A DNA stretch of 63,995 bases, filler included, from Ionaspis alba (GCA_964255285.1; 13 parts of 13 records of this genome joined end to end with filler, not necessarily neighbours in it); one strand, 5' to 3'. Positions 14,996 through 20,093 are shown, counted from the whole stretch's first letter. The notes: generated by a model from the letters alone, not told the origin. Made by a program: numbers and translations.

Positions 14996-16128
14996 NNNNN
15001 NNNNNNNNNNNNNNNNNNNNNNNNNNNNNNNNNNNNNNNTTAATTAATTAANNNNNNNNNNNNNNNNNNNNNNNNNNNNNNNNNNNNNNNNNNNNCGAAT
15101 ATATCAACAGAGTCAGGAGTAATTTATTCCGGATGAAGATGGAAGCAGAGCCACTAAGGAATTCACATGGAGCACTCGAGGTACATAGAATCGAGCTTTA
15201 CACACTTCTTTCCAGCACAAAGAGCGAGATACTGTGGGACTCGGAGATTGTTACAAGTACCTTCCGACTGCTGCCTGATGAGGCGGATTCTCTACCACGA
15301 TAACCAAGGTGCGTTCAATTGAGTGCAGATAATCCGCAGAAACGGCATAGAATGCGCTCAAATGGACTCGTTGGTGATCCTTCACGCTAACCGTCAAAGC
15401 AAACGGACCTTCTACCGAGCTCACAAGGGCCTCCAGCAGTTTGATATTCTCGATAAGGTGTTCCGGGCCAGATGATTCGAGCTTTCCCATCGTAGAATAA
15501 AGATTCTTTGGTAATCGCCCCATGCGACTATTCCCATCGACGACAACAGACCAGCCAACGGGAGCCAACAGGCGCCAACAGGGCTTGGCGCTCTCCATCC
15601 TCTTCATGGAACACTTTGTTGCTCGTCTTGATTATTTCATTATCTGTTGCCTACACGGTGTTTCCTGCACTCCCTTCTGCATGTAATGCAACACCATACA
15701 ACAGTCAAGCTGCATGCGAGAGATGTTCTACCATATAAACTACCATATCTTTGGGGATAGTAGGGCTTCGGGTATGGCCGCTCCATCAGCCGATTGTTTC
15801 GTCCTCTCCAACTCAGTCGTTTCGAGCCACGGATGTGTTCGTCCAAGATACCGAGCGAGCCTGGCAGCTGTGTTTATGGCGAAGATCAGTCTGCATATTG
15901 ACTAGGGTTAATGTTGCGTTGTATGTCCAAGCAGATGTATCTGTTTGATGTACGAGGATGCCTTCAAACGAGGTGCTTCTGTATATTACAAGACGAGACC
16001 GGGCACTTTTAGAGCTCTTCTTCAGCAAATACTCCTTCCTCCCGACGCTCCACTATCAACAGGCTTGATATACTTTGGGCATTTCATAAATTCGTTTCAA
16101 TCTCTTCCCGGATCTTTGATTCTTCATC

Positions 16129-16734
16129 ATGCACTTCTCATTCCTCGCACTTCTATCACTCGGAGCATTGACTCTTTCTGCCGCTAATTCCGTACAGCAT
16201 GATTCGCAAGTCTTTGCTTTCGAGTTCCGTGATCTCATGCCTTATTCTCGTCAAGCTTTGATCAGCAAGTTTGAACCACCTCACATTGACCATCTTGCCA
16301 AGCGTATTGCACTCGCCAAAGGCGGCGGAGGCGGTGGAGGAGGCAAGGGAGGTGGAGGTGGCGCTAAGTCAGGCGGGGGTAAAGGCGGAAAGAAAGGCAA
16401 GGACAAGAAAGGCCACGACCAAGATGTTCCGGGGACGAACGGCGGCGGAATTGAGCCAGCGCCCCCAGGCTTAAGCGCAGGTGGCACAAAGGGTATGATT
16501 CATTCACCAACCATCATCAACGCCAACACGCATCGCTGACTTAGAACAGCATGGAATGATTGTCAAAGAGCATCAAACCCGTCGGGCGACTGCAACGACA
16601 TGATCGGCATGTTCGCTGCAGCGGGATGCAGCCAGGCACGAGCTAAACAAATGGCTCCTTGTTCGAACAAAGAGGTCCAAGGCTATTTGAGCAAGCAATA
16701 CTGTAAAAAGAATCCCAAGGGAAAAGGATGCTAG
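16129..16734 (+). CDS. Secreted Gly/Lys-rich 6-Cys precursor protein, paralog A (182 aa)
   Basis: Signal peptide MHFSFLALLSLGALTLSAA; LAKR putative Kex2 site; poly-Gly/Lys arm; phase-1 intron 16493-16549 (GTATGA, GCTGAC, CAG); exon 2 AWNDCQRASNPSGDCNDMIGMFAAAGCSQARAKQMAPCSNKEVQGYLSKQYCKKNPKGKGC*. Confidence 0.9.
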
Positions 16735-17141
16735 ATACTGATTGTTGCGGGTTCAGGGCGTAGATTGGGGTGGAACTTGGCTGAATTGGGTTTCCGAGGC
16801 GGAGTATGTAGAAGAAATCTTGTCTTAATAATGATGACGATTCTTCAAATTCATTCCCTACCTCAAATAACATCCAAACTCAATGATTTCATCAGGTTCG
16901 GCTCTCAACATGAAGACATCGAAGGCGGAACATGATCCCGGCCAGTATATCCAAAGCCCAAGGATAGCATTGCCTCGTTGACGAAATTTGGTCGGACGTA
17001 TCAAGACCTGGAATTGCATTACAACACAACACAGCAAGCTCTGGGAACGCCCGGAGGGGCCTGGCGATCAAAAAGAGGGCTGAGTACGTGAGAGTAACAA
17101 GCAGACGATGAGAGGAATCAGAATCAACGCAGAATGGTGTA

Positions 17142-17301
17142 GACTGTCACCCGTAGTAACCGAACGCACGTCAGATCGCGGACAGACTCACTAGACCACC
17201 TAAGTGTTGCCCCTTAATTTCAATTTAGTTGACCGATGTTAGGGCGTTTAAGGGGGTTTGTTCGCGATCTGACGTGCGTTCGGTTACTACGGGTGACCCT
17301 G
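17142..17301. mobile_element. MITE-like element (~160 bp) with 35-bp perfect inverted repeats and TA flanks, possibly Tc1/mariner type
   Basis: gtcacccgtagtaaccgaacgcacgtcagatcgcg at 17146-17180 and its exact reverse complement at 17263-17297; TA lies 4 nt outside each arm (17140-17141, 17302-17303); the right end reads TA-CAGGG inward; no coding capacity. Confidence 0.65.
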
Positions 17302-18169
17302 TATTCATTCAGAAAAGCGTTCACTAACATCAACCATAGTTTATAAAGGAGCTGAGAACACCTAGACACATGCCGAACATCCTCCCCACCAATGGACAGG
17401 AATAACTCATGGTCGAGTTGATAGAATACCTTGTTGAGTTTCGCTCACTTCTATGGCTGACGTTTACCCGATCAGACGAGATCCTCGAACTCGCTTGGAA
17501 GTCTTAGCTGTGGCGAGGCCAACGAGGTCCAACACCAAACTAAGTCGCTTCTGCCCCATCTGCTGGATCCCACAACATCACGAACGACTGCGATTTATAC
17601 AATGATACTGTCGAATTACTATCGCTGAGTTAAGCCGGTTTCCACATTCTGTATCCAATGCTGCTTATCACTTCACTTTGTTTCATCGCCAAAAAAAGAA
17701 GAAAAGAAAAACGTTGCCTACCAAGTATCTCCTGCAATCAGTTTCGTGGCGTTGGGAAAGAGGCGCAGGCGCCCTTGAGGCTATCGTGCCAACATCTGCA
17801 AGATTGTTTCGTTCATCCATCCATCAGCCAGAGGCTAGATCTTACTCCAACTCTGTTGTCTCGCATCATCACTTCGCCGCATTCTTACTCGAATTGGCAA
17901 GGCTTTCAGTCTCGTGTGTCTCTTCCAAGCTATGATATCCAAAAGAACCATAATCATGGGATCAGAGTTGCACCATATATTCCTGCGTGATGTTATGACC
18001 AAGTACTGTATAAGTAGAGGGAACCGACGGAGGTCATCTACAGCCACTTCCAATCAGCAGCCATCGAGAGGAGCCGCCCTTAAAGCCAATCCTTCACATA
18101 TCTATCTGCACAATCAGCAGGCCTGATCCATAGTCCTTGGTCTTCATCCATATCTCCGAAACTCCACCC

Positions 18170-18752
18170 ATGATGAAATTCTCCATCCTTGCCCTCCTCT
18201 TCCTTTCAGCCCTGTCTGTCTCTGCCAACCCCTACAACAAGCATTACGAACTCAACGCCCGAGACTTAGAAAACCAAATCGTTGCCCGCGAAGCATACAT
18301 TGAAACCTTCGACAACTTCCGTCGCAACATCCTTGATCGCCGTCTCGCCCTCGCCAGAGGCGGTGGGGGTGGAGGAGGCGGCAGAGGAGGACCGAAAGCC
18401 CCTCCTAAAGACAAAAACAATAAAGACAACAAAGACGGCGGCGGGGGGATCCAACCAGTACCCCCCGGTTTCAGTGCCGAAGGCAAGAAGGGTACGTGTT
18501 TTCATCCTGCCAAAGAGTATATCGTAGACACCTGCTGAAGCATGAATTACCCGCATAGCCTGGGACTCTTGCGAGAAAGCTTCACAGAACAACGGTGACT
18601 GCAACAGCATGGTTGGGCCTTTTGCGGCTGCGGGCTGCAGTATGGCGACGGCCAAAATCATGAAGCCGTGCGAGAATAACGAGGTGCAAGCGTACCGCAC
18701 GAAGCTCTATTGCCAAAAAAATCCGGGAGGGAAAGGTTGTAAAGGTAAGTAG
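18170..18752 (+). CDS. Secreted Gly/Lys-rich 6-Cys precursor protein, paralog B (171 aa)
   Basis: Signal peptide MMKFSILALLFLSALSVSA; LDRR putative Kex2 site; poly-Gly arm; phase-1 intron 18492-18558 at the same position as in paralog A; exon 2 AWDSCEKASQNNGDCNSMVGPFAAAGCSMATAKIMKPCENNEVQAYRTKLYCQKNPGGKGCKGK*. Confidence 0.9.
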
Positions 18753-18873
18753 GATTGCTACTCAGGCGAATAGTACTATGCCTTGCATACTTTCATCCGA
18801 CCGGTTTTGTGCAGGCATGCACTTCTTGTGAGTGATCTGATAAGTGACATGGGAAGCTTGAAACCGCTTTCCA

Positions 18874-19800
18874 TCACCCTCTTCCTCTTCCTCTCTTTCC
18901 CCTTCCCGTTCTTCCTCCACTCCCTCTTCCCTTAGGCCCTTCGATCTCCTCCACATCCCTCCTACTCAACCTCAACGTCCCACCCCTAAAACTTCCCAGC
19001 CCAGGCGCCCCAACACCTCTCTCCCTCTTCCCTCTCTGCCCCTTTCCTTTCTTCCTCACTTCTCTCTCCAGGATGATCCCATTCTCCCTCGCTTCCCTCC
19101 TCCTGATCTCCTCTTTCCCCACAGCCTTAGCTTCTATCCCTTTCCTGTGCGCCATGGGCATTTTCTGCTGCTTGAGCAACGAAGTCTTGGCGCCGAGTGA
19201 TTGCAGGCGGAGATCCAGGGCTTTCTGCCGGGCAGAGCCGGAGAGCGTGAGAGGCTTTGTGTGAGATGAGGGAGTGAGAAGGTGGGATTCGTGGAGGAGG
19301 CGTTGGAGAGCGAGGTCATTTGCTAGAAGGGCGGATTCGGTTTGAGGGTCTTCTGAGGGAACGATTGTCGAGGATGGAGGCTTCGTCTTAGGTCTAAGAG
19401 TAGAGTCGATGATGGGCGGTGGTTTTGCGGTCTAGAAAATCGAATGGTCAGCTTCAACCCTAGATGACTGGTATAGACTGACCATGAATGTTCTAAGCTC
19501 ATCTTTGGGAATATCTTCCTCTGTGGTTTTTGAGTTTATATGCTCAACGATTTGGACTTTGAGTACGTCATCATGATCCGATAGACCTTCCCAGTCGGAG
19601 CCGCCATTATCGGTAGAAGAATCGGCCTTCTCAGTGGGCTGTGGTGGAATGGGAAGACCTGTCAGAGGGCGGAATTTTGCTTCAAAGTGCTGCTGAAAAA
19701 GTGCTTGCACTTGATGATTTGCGTCAGAATTTCTCAGGTCCTCTTTGCGGACATCTTCGAGGCGATCTCTCCGTTTCCGCTTTCCCAGTATTGCTATCAT
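18874..19800 (-). CDS. FAF1: Pre-rRNA processing / 40S biogenesis factor Faf1-like
   Basis: Two exons: LGKRKR, FQQHFEAKFRPL, NDLALQRLLHESHLL, QQKMPMAHRKGI, RRREARENGIILE and GSFRGGTLRLSRRDV. Confidence 0.8.
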
Positions 19801-20093
19801 AGTGTAGCGTGGTGCGTTTGCTTGGTGAGATAGATGAAGTTCAGGGCCACGATCTGATATATCTTAGCAACCTCAAAGGATTATTGCTTGGATCCTCGGT
19901 TGATCTAGGTCCCTGTTCCGGCCCCCTGTAAGCGTTGACACCTAGCTAATTTCGTGAAATGCAGCGAATGGCACCAGCTGATTAGCCCCCTGTNNNNNNN
20001 NNNNNNNNNNNNNNNNNNNNNNNNNNNNNNNNNNNNNTTAATTAATTAANNNNNNNNNNNNNNNNNNNNNNNNNNNNNNNNNNNNNNNNNNNN

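What the first reader, a model, noticed from the sequence alone, without database searches (positions are those of the whole stretch)
16129..18752. Tandem pair of unrecognised secreted precursors: signal peptide + Kex2-type pro-region + poly-Gly/Lys arm + 6-Cys domain
Seen: two same-strand genes ~1.4 kb apart share one phase-1 intron at the same position (K-G|GT), so the ORF track misses the conserved exon. Spliced, both read signal peptide / pro-region ending LAKR or LDRR / [IL]ALA[KR]GGGGGGGG / Lys-rich linker / GGGI[EQ]PxPPG[LF]SAxG / a 61-aa domain with identical spacing C-x9-C-x11-C-x10-C-x13-C-x8-C. That domain is 39/61 identical by hand count, while the pro-regions have diverged. Known: LxxR/KR pro-domain processing by Kex2 is typical of fungal effectors and toxins, and Gly-rich cationic and small disulfide-rich peptides are common antimicrobial formats. 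I do not recognise this Cys spacing as hydrophobin, CFEM, PAF/AFP, defensin, KP4 or cerato-platanin. Inference: a lineage-specific, possibly undescribed family of secreted effector or antimicrobial proteins combining both formats.
Basis: partly seen in the sequence, partly recalled or inferred. Interest (0 to 1): 0.8.

Follow-up and report, generated by a model that had tools for sequence, protein, structure and literature searches.

The report
Lichen-fungus secreted glycine-arm cysteine protein family
Two neighbouring fungal genes belong to an unnamed protein family also found in lichen-forming fungi, predicted to be secreted and trimmed in two steps, like yeast mating pheromone, into a positively charged glycine-rich tail plus a six-cysteine domain that likely acts on neighbouring microbes.

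Summary
Observation confirmed. Both genes have GT-AG phase-1 introns at the stated places, six Cys spaced 9-11-10-13-8, and 39/61 identity; synonymous sites are saturated while dN is about 0.29. A third paralogue has the same intron. The family is not species-specific: about 23 homologue clusters, four named to lichen fungi (Ptychographa, Xylographa, Lambiella, Varicellaria), and 17 of 20 homologues match across the splice junction. No informative Pfam, PDB or Atlas match.

After the KR/RR site, 16 of 18 precursors carry 2-7 in-register X-Ala/X-Pro dipeptides (control 1 of 45), the Ste13/DPP-IV signature. In 14 of 18 the run ends at K/R-G, so the mature protein probably starts at K/R-GGGG, not IALA/LALA. 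A second subfamily lacks the arm, dipeptides and positive linker, so the arm is an add-on module.

Best reading: a cationic 11-kDa secreted antimicrobial or microbiome-shaping protein with hyastatin-like architecture but no homology to it (about 45%). Rivals: a signalling ligand or a matrix protein. Function, expression and fold are untested; models are low-confidence. The scan's notes showed no earlier record of this family.

The parts
16129..16492 (+). Gene 1 exon 1 (signal peptide, pro-region, dipeptides, Gly/Lys arm, start of the conserved domain)
16129..16185 (+). Gene 1 predicted signal peptide (about residues 1-19; cleavage site inferred, SignalP not available)
   Evidence: Kyte-Doolittle 9-residue windows up to 2.3
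16300..16305 (+). Gene 1 dibasic Kex2-type site KR (P4-P1 LAKR)
16306..16317 (+). Gene 1 two X-Ala dipeptides (IA, LA), predicted dipeptidyl-aminopeptidase spacer
16318..16455 (+). Gene 1 Gly/Lys-rich arm; predicted mature N-terminus K64
16493..16549 (+). Gene 1 phase-1 intron, 57 nt, GT-AG
   Evidence: junction motif in 17 of 20 homologues
16550..16734 (+). Gene 1 exon 2: six-Cys domain (Cys 126, 136, 148, 159, 173, 182) and stop
17138..17299 (.). 162-bp MITE-like insertion with long terminal inverted repeats between the genes; absent from the C283 copy and skipped by a contig of run X1
18170..18491 (+). Gene 2 exon 1 (signal peptide, pro-region, dipeptides, Gly/Lys arm, start of the domain)
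18338..18343 (+). Gene 2 dibasic Kex2-type site RR (P4-P1 LDRR)
18344..18355 (+). Gene 2 two X-Ala dipeptides (LA, LA)
18356..18454 (+). Gene 2 Gly/Lys-rich arm; predicted mature N-terminus R63 (K in a contig of run X1)
18492..18558 (+). Gene 2 phase-1 intron, 67 nt, GT-AG
18559..18752 (+). Gene 2 exon 2: six-Cys domain (Cys 112, 122, 134, 145, 159, 168) and stop

Best explanation
These are two old paralogues of an unnamed small-protein family found in lichen-forming fungi, predicted to be secreted, cut by Kex2 at KR/RR and trimmed by a dipeptidyl aminopeptidase to an 11-kDa cationic protein that starts K/R-GGGG and likely binds and inhibits neighbouring microbes. Shown from sequence: gene structure, purifying selection, family membership, dibasic site, in-register X-Ala/X-Pro run, arm composition, six conserved Cys, and genes for both processing enzymes in the genome. 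Inferred: secretion; Kex2 then Ste13/DPP-IV cleavage (about 80%); three disulfides in a mainly helical domain (low-confidence models). Least certain: the target. In this model the dipeptide spacer masks a basic N-terminus until late in secretion, the flexible Gly/Lys arm attaches to anionic cell surfaces or wall polymers, and the disulfide domain carries the specific activity.
For: Dipeptides: 16 of 18 arm-bearing precursors have 2-7 X-A/X-P dipeptides straight after KR/RR. A/P stands at positions 2 and 4 in 34 of 36 cases and at positions 1 and 3 in 1 of 36. The run ends at K/R-G in 14 of 18. Control: 1 of 45 dibasic sites in long window frames. Run length and letters differ between lineages, so the register is conserved rather than one inherited word. 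The single non-synonymous difference between the window and the X1 contig covering 18256-18728 is R63K at the predicted N-terminus, which stays basic. The genome encodes a DPP-IV-family protein with an N-terminal hydrophobic segment (PF00930, E 4e-115) and a Kex2-like protease (PF01483). Predicted mature proteins: 101-119 aa, pI 9.3-9.6, net +8 to +11, 21-28% Gly. Precedent: XA/XP removal by Ste13 after Kex2 (PMC9769878, passages); the same scheme proposed for Gly-rich insect AMP precursors (PMC3415428, passages); hyastatin is an 11.7-kDa Gly-rich AMP with a Pro-rich middle and a six-Cys C-terminal domain (PMC2866484, passages); a basic N-terminal residue is critical for membrane binding of parasin I (PMC12869253, passage citing Koo 2008). 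Weak: a levomeric-2 gamma-core sequence pattern in 19 of 19 arm-type domains and 0 of 4 arm-less ones, but 0.35 per shuffled sequence and a single evolutionary event.
Against: No activity or expression data. Kex2 plus dipeptide trimming also matures pheromones and other non-toxic peptides, and a KEP-like repeat gene near gene 1 on C283 has R-EA motifs, so the processing does not by itself indicate toxicity. The domain is slowly evolving (dS saturated, dN 0.29-0.48), not the rapid divergence expected of arms-race proteins. Its predicted helices are only moderately amphipathic (hydrophobic moment 0.11-0.43), so pore formation by the domain is not indicated. The arm-less subfamily has a mostly acidic linker and a neutral-to-variable domain charge (-3 to +4), which fits a cationic-AMP role poorly. 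The gamma-core is a two-strand structure, whereas both models are helical. Two of 18 precursors (g3, P0010) break the dipeptide run after one step; g3 may use a second LNPR site instead (read by eye). Several of the 18 are close relatives, so they are not 18 independent cases.
Confidence: 0.45

Rival explanations
1. A secreted signalling ligand or symbiosis effector. The folded six-Cys domain would bind a receptor on the photobiont or on fungal hyphae, the alpha-factor-like processing would give a defined N-terminus, and the cationic arm would hold the protein in the extracellular matrix or help uptake.
For: Kex2 plus XA/XP trimming is the classic maturation of ascomycete alpha-pheromones (PMC9769878, passages). 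The domain is conserved across genera with few copies (three in this assembly). All four named homologues are from lichen fungi (Xylographa's lichen status recalled). Lichen-specific SSPs are reported as induced early in symbiosis (PMC9232553, passages). The arm-less subfamily shows the domain can exist without the cationic arm.
Against: No receptor gene is linked: neighbours are FSAF1, HD-domain and But2-like genes for genes 1-2, and Spc7 and a formate/nitrite transporter for gene 3. Most homologues are from unnamed assemblies, so lichen restriction is not established. The arm, next to the trimmed N-terminus, is low-complexity and variable in length (25-49 aa), unlike a receptor epitope.
Confidence: 0.25
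2. A structural cell-wall or matrix protein. The Gly/Lys arm would bind or be cross-linked to polysaccharides of the thallus matrix and the Cys domain would act as an assembly or adhesion module.
For: The arm is 21-28% Gly in the mature protein and Lys-rich. Gly-rich proteins can be adhesive (PMC11772090, abstract start in search listing), and the Gly-rich part of hyastatin binds chitin (PMC2866484, passages). Slow evolution of the domain fits a housekeeping role.
Against: A precisely trimmed N-terminus kept across genera is not obviously needed for a bulk structural protein. The arm is short and has no regular repeat. There is no hydrophobin-type eight-Cys pattern.
Confidence: 0.18
3. A small-ligand carrier or enzyme inhibitor: a helical disulfide domain that binds a lipid, metal or hydrolase, with the arm as a solubility or targeting tag.
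For: Both low-confidence models are all-helical. A Gly-Asp-Cys motif is kept in the arm-bearing subfamily and a His is invariant in the closest nine sequences.
Against: The His is absent from genes 1 and 2, and the Asp varies in the arm-less subfamily. No sequence match to known carriers or inhibitors in Pfam.
Confidence: 0.1

Closest known systems
K2PP (Kex2-processed pro-domain) fungal effectors, Outram et al. 2021 (PMC8528282; parts 1-2 of 3 read)
   Same: Signal peptide, N-terminal pro-domain ending in KR/RR, mostly with an aliphatic P4 residue, then one mature Cys-containing protein.
   Different: Here a conserved X-A/X-P dipeptide run follows the Kex2 site, there is a Gly/Lys arm, the named hosts are lichen fungi rather than plant pathogens, and no homology to any described K2PP effector was found.
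Alpha-pheromone precursors and KEPs with Ste13 motifs (PMC9769878, passages)
   Same: KR/RR followed by XA/XP dipeptides.
   Different: One site and one 100-120-aa product with a folded domain, instead of repeated short peptide cores; the X residues are mostly hydrophobic rather than Asp/Glu.
Hyastatin (spider crab AMP), with penaeidins and type II crustins (PMC2866484, review passages)
   Same: About 11.5 kDa, Gly-rich N-terminal region, short Pro-rich stretch, C-terminal six-Cys domain that is probably helical.
   Different: No homology detected (no Pfam hit); Cys evenly spaced 9-11-10-13-8; fungal, with a pro-domain and dipeptide spacer. The resemblance is architectural convergence at most.
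Fungal cysteine-stabilised antifungal proteins AFP / BP / NFAP2 (PMC13525654, abstract and passages)
   Same: Small, basic, Cys-rich, pre-pro proteins with a Kex2-type site (AFP, BP).
   Different: Those are beta-structured with precursors of about 86-93 aa and dextromeric or double levomeric-1 gamma-cores. This family has no dextromeric motif (0 of 23), a Gly arm, and helical low-confidence models.
Hymenoptaecin/apidaecin multipeptide precursors of Hymenoptera (PMC3415428, passages)
   Same: Antimicrobial peptides proposed to be released by RR/KR cleavage and dipeptide trimming; hymenoptaecin is Gly-rich (recalled).
   Different: Animal, repeated domains, no six-Cys domain, no homology found.

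Membership tests
K2PP secreted proteins | N-terminal signal peptide | tested here: met
   Hydrophobic N-termini in g1-g3 and in the full-length homologues; judged by hydropathy and by eye, SignalP not available
K2PP secreted proteins | KR/RR or LxxR site in the first half after a pro-region | tested here: met
   A dibasic site precedes the domain in 22 of 22 full-length precursors examined
K2PP secreted proteins | Pro-domain absent from the secreted protein / cleaved by Kex2 | not testable with these tools
   Needs N-terminomics or in vitro Kex2; a Kex2-like gene is present
K2PP secreted proteins | Effector activity on a host or partner | not testable with these tools
   No functional data
KEPs / alpha-pheromone precursors | Kex2 site followed by XA/XP dipeptides | tested here: met
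   16 of 18 arm-bearing precursors with 2 or more dipeptides; control 1 of 45
KEPs / alpha-pheromone precursors | Repeated short peptide cores between several Kex2 sites | tested here: not met
   One downstream product with a single six-Cys domain
Hyastatin / penaeidin-type AMPs | Gly-rich N-terminal region, short Pro-rich stretch, six-Cys C-terminal domain | tested here: met
   against the description in PMC2866484
Hyastatin / penaeidin-type AMPs | Sequence homology to the penaeidin-type Cys domain | tested here: not met
   No Pfam family at E up to 10 for the two exon-2 domains; none shared among 15 members; no PDB sequence hit
Hyastatin / penaeidin-type AMPs | Antimicrobial activity | not testable with these tools
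   Needs assay
AFP / BP / NFAP2 | Dextromeric gamma-core (AFP, NFAP2) or two levomeric-1 cores with eight Cys (BP) | tested here: not met
   Dextromeric 0 of 23, levomeric-1 2 of 23, six Cys only; the levomeric-2 pattern is in 19 of 23 but is not the type listed for these families
AFP / BP / NFAP2 | Beta-barrel or knottin fold | tested here: inconclusive
   Models are helical but pLDDT is 53-57; fold searches uninformative
Hydrophobins; CFEM domains | Eight-Cys patterns (definition recalled, from no call) | tested here: not met
   Six Cys without CC doublets in 22 of 23 rows; no Pfam hit

The most novel reading that the evidence does not exclude
This is a lichen-fungus family of modular secreted proteins with an undescribed disulfide fold. 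An ancestral arm-less six-Cys domain gained a pheromone-type Kex2/Ste13 safety catch and a cationic Gly/Lys arm, converging on the hyastatin design, and the lichen fungus uses it to police its thallus microbiome or control its algal partner. It would be a specific, conserved, expressible protein handle on how lichen fungi manage their partners.
Probability: 0.25. Interest if true: 0.8.

Novelty: new variant of a known kind. Interest (0 to 1): 0.52.

Why it matters
Lichen secretome studies list hundreds of predicted antimicrobial proteins and small secreted proteins in bulk. In the four lichen papers I consulted (passages or one section only) I saw no description of this family, and most lichen SSPs are reported as genus- or species-specific (PMC9232553). 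This family is conserved across at least two orders, is small enough to express in Pichia (which has Kex2 and Ste13 homologues, PMC9769878), and comes with a natural control, the arm-less subfamily. That makes its role in microbiome control or photobiont contact directly testable. It also shows a Ste13-type spacer on a non-repeat fungal protein with a folded domain, which matters for predicting mature forms of K2PP-type proteins. If it proves inert or structural, it is one more orphan secreted family.

Tried and rejected
Sequence libraries: Pfam gave no family for the four exon translations; across 15 aligned members only three single-member weak hits, none shared. PDB sequences: 0 hits with three profiles. 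ESM Atlas: no usable hit twice; clusters under 50 members cannot be hits, so this shows nothing about novelty. The word-indexed search with one exon found none of 8 candidates, although HMMER later found relatives.

Other searches: no RNA holder listed. Runs X2 and X3 gave only short or low-depth pieces. The metagenome-contig scan gave 2 loci of 297 candidates; both are chance (HMM E 0.08 and 0.16). P0007 (962-aa tandem repeat) was rejected as spurious. P0021 (553 aa with a TPR part) is probably a merged gene model; its C-terminal part has no match in the window or fetched loci, so no synteny conclusion. P0009's four-Cys end is probably intron read-through (inference), so it was not used to infer disulfide pairs.

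Rejected readings: a gene cluster with the rest of the window (the window is concatenated contigs); C283 as a fourth paralogue (CDS and intron identical, more likely the other haplotype); a histone-tail mimic (compositional resemblance only, recalled, untested).

Literature: ten searches. The locus tags and accessions gave 0 papers. The text of two 2026 lichen AMP preprints has no 'glycine', 'Kex2' or 'cysteine', but their supplementary tables are closed and could list these proteins as anonymous orthogroups.

Full report
1. Observation. The two genes are as described. Splicing at 16493-16549 and 18492-18558 (both GT-AG, phase 1) gives open products of 182 and 171 aa. Cys spacing is 9-11-10-13-8 in both, and the exon-2 domain is 39/61 identical. 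Over the 73-codon core, synonymous sites are saturated (pS 0.93) while pN is 0.24 (dN about 0.29), so the duplication is old and the protein is under purifying selection. The pro-regions share 9 of 40 residues. The window is a chain of short contigs joined by N spacers; the true context is 15096-19993.

2. Copies in the genome. Protein searches of the 18.3-Mb assembly with four queries give the same four places each time: the two window genes, a third paralogue on C142 (g3, 176 aa, 62-nt phase-1 intron at the same codon, 27/61 identical to each), and a copy of gene 1 on C283. The C283 copy is identical over CDS and intron but 94.6% over the whole aligned block, and lacks a 162-bp inverted-repeat insertion. 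Run X1 shows paired contigs of similar depth at several places in this region, so C283 is more likely a second haplotype. Neighbours are unrelated: FSAF1 downstream of gene 2, HD-domain and But2-like genes upstream on C283, and Spc7 and a formate/nitrite transporter around g3.

3. Family. A profile of the three exon-2 domains against 1.84 billion representatives gave 13 hits at E up to 0.001; 12 are real by alignment and one is a repeat artefact. Two further profile searches added 7 and 4 proteins, about 23 clusters in all, some fragments. Four have NCBI names, all hypothetical proteins: Ptychographa xylographoides MCJ1410517.1, Xylographa pallens MCJ1439436.1, Lambiella insularis MCJ1473748.1 and Varicellaria rhodocarpa MCJ1236116.1. 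Three are Lecanoromycetes, Ostropomycetidae by call (41-43); Xylographa's placement is recalled. The other homologues come from unnamed assemblies, so restriction to lichen fungi is likely but not shown. In a tree of 23 domain rows (fragments P0003, P0008, P0011, P0013, P0029, near-duplicates and P0007 left out), g3 groups with Lambiella and Xylographa (95/93), genes 1 and 2 group with unnamed P0002 (95/83), and four unnamed proteins form a distant subfamily (100/98); the root is midpoint only. Six Cys are present in 22 of 23 rows, with the 10 and 13 spacings invariant among them. A motif spanning the splice junction occurs in 17 of 20 homologues, which supports the intron calls in the absence of RNA data.

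4. Processing signature, the main new result. I examined 18 arm-bearing precursors with a complete N-terminus (three own, 15 homologues; fragments, the mis-started P0002 and near-duplicate cluster members left out). After the last KR/RR before the domain, 16 of 18 carry 2-7 consecutive X-Ala/X-Pro dipeptides. Ala/Pro stands at positions 2 and 4 in 34 of 36 cases and at positions 1 and 3 in 1 of 36, against a background of 0.18, and in 14 of 18 the run ends exactly at K/R-G. In long frames of the window only 1 of 45 dibasic sites has two such dipeptides. The runs differ between lineages in length and letters (for example five dipeptides in Varicellaria, seven in P0023), so register, not sequence, is conserved. 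Several rows are close relatives, so the number of independent cases is nearer ten. Exceptions: P0010 and g3; g3 has a second possible site, LNPR, one dipeptide before its K-GGGG (by eye). XA/XP after a Kex2 site is the Ste13 motif (PMC9769878, passages). The genome has one DPP-IV-family gene and one Kex2-like gene. The four arm-less proteins have KR but no dipeptides, no arm and an acidic linker: spacer and arm occur together. In run X1, which may be the source sample and is not independent support, the contig covering 18256-18728 differs from the window at two sites, one silent and one R63K at the predicted N-terminus; other contigs show four amino-acid differences in the signal/pro-region and two near the C-terminus.

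5. Mature product. Predicted mature proteins are 101-119 aa, 10.1-11.5 kDa, pI 9.3-9.6, net +8 to +11, 21-28% Gly. Both AlphaFold2 models are all-helical but low-confidence (pLDDT 57 and 53), and fold searches are uninformative. No informative Pfam, PDB-sequence or Atlas match was found.

6. Mechanism. Best reading (0.45): secretion, Kex2 cleavage and dipeptide trimming release a cationic protein whose arm binds anionic surfaces and whose disulfide domain inhibits competing microbes. Support is by analogy: hyastatin's architecture and the need for its Cys domain (PMC2866484, passages), dipeptide-trimmed insect AMP precursors (PMC3415428, passages), and the basic N-terminus of parasin I (PMC12869253, passage). 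Against it: slow evolution, modest amphipathicity, a non-cationic arm-less subfamily, and the use of the same processing by pheromones. The levomeric-2 gamma-core pattern (19 of 23 rows; 0.35 by shuffle, definition from PMC13525654) is weak. Rivals: signalling ligand or symbiosis effector (0.25), matrix or adhesive protein (0.18), carrier or inhibitor (0.10).

7. Comparison and novelty. It meets the sequence criteria of K2PP proteins (PMC8528282, parts 1-2 of 3 read); cleavage and effector function are untested. It is not a KEP (no repeats), not AFP/BP/NFAP2, hydrophobin or CFEM by Cys and motif pattern, and not homologous to hyastatin. Searches for the locus tags and accessions found no paper; combined-term searches found no description. 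Lichen papers seen: PMC9232553 (passages), the Xanthoria preprint 10.1101/2024.08.16.608140 (passages), 10.64898/2026.09.03.749242 (abstract, one section, term search) and 10.64898/2026.06.16.732702 (passages). Their supplements were not seen and may list these proteins anonymously as predicted AMPs. PMC6356579 (passages) was read for dipeptidyl processing of ant venom peptides. The library lacks most subscription journals.

8. Verdict. A real, apparently undescribed secreted-protein family of lichen-forming fungi with a well-supported two-step maturation signature and a modular arm; function inferred, not shown. New variant of a known kind (K2PP-type small Cys-rich secreted protein). Interest 0.52; 0.8 if it proves to be an antimicrobial or partner-controlling protein with a new fold (probability 0.25).

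Noticed in passing
window 17138-17299: 162-bp MITE-like element with terminal inverted repeats of about 33 bp and a short TGTA duplication at the junction. It is present in one haplotype only, and X1 depth is about 230-245 there against about 65 over gene 1, suggesting many copies.
   Followed up: partly
window 15096-19993 versus G000:C283:1-2752; run X1: Two haplotypes about 5% divergent in non-coding DNA at similar depth. For a lichen fungus, usually haploid (recalled), this suggests a mixed-genotype sample, a heterokaryon or a hybrid.
   Followed up: partly
L009:4538-4802 (G000:C283), next to an N gap: Secreted precursor with acidic, His-containing repeats separated by single-Arg R-EA motifs, KEP/pheromone-like, about 2.8 kb upstream of gene 1. 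A But2-like secreted gene follows at L009:5964-6551, so this may be a small cluster of secreted-protein genes.
   Followed up: no
whole window: The window is a concatenation of length-sorted contigs of about 4.5-5 kb joined by N spacers with a stop-codon linker; gene neighbourhoods across spacers are artificial.
   Followed up: yes
P0012, P0026, P0027, P0028 (unnamed records): Arm-less subfamily of the same six-Cys domain (109-118 aa, KR site, no dipeptides, acidic linker); source organisms unnamed.
   Followed up: partly
P0021 (Lambiella insularis MCJ1473748.1): The public gene model joins this family's precursor to a TPR-containing protein; probably a merged annotation rather than a true fusion.
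   Followed up: partly
window 18874-19800, minus strand: FSAF1/Faf1-type 40S processome assembly factor gene (PF15375, E 2e-11) converging on gene 2; ordinary housekeeping neighbour.
   Followed up: yes
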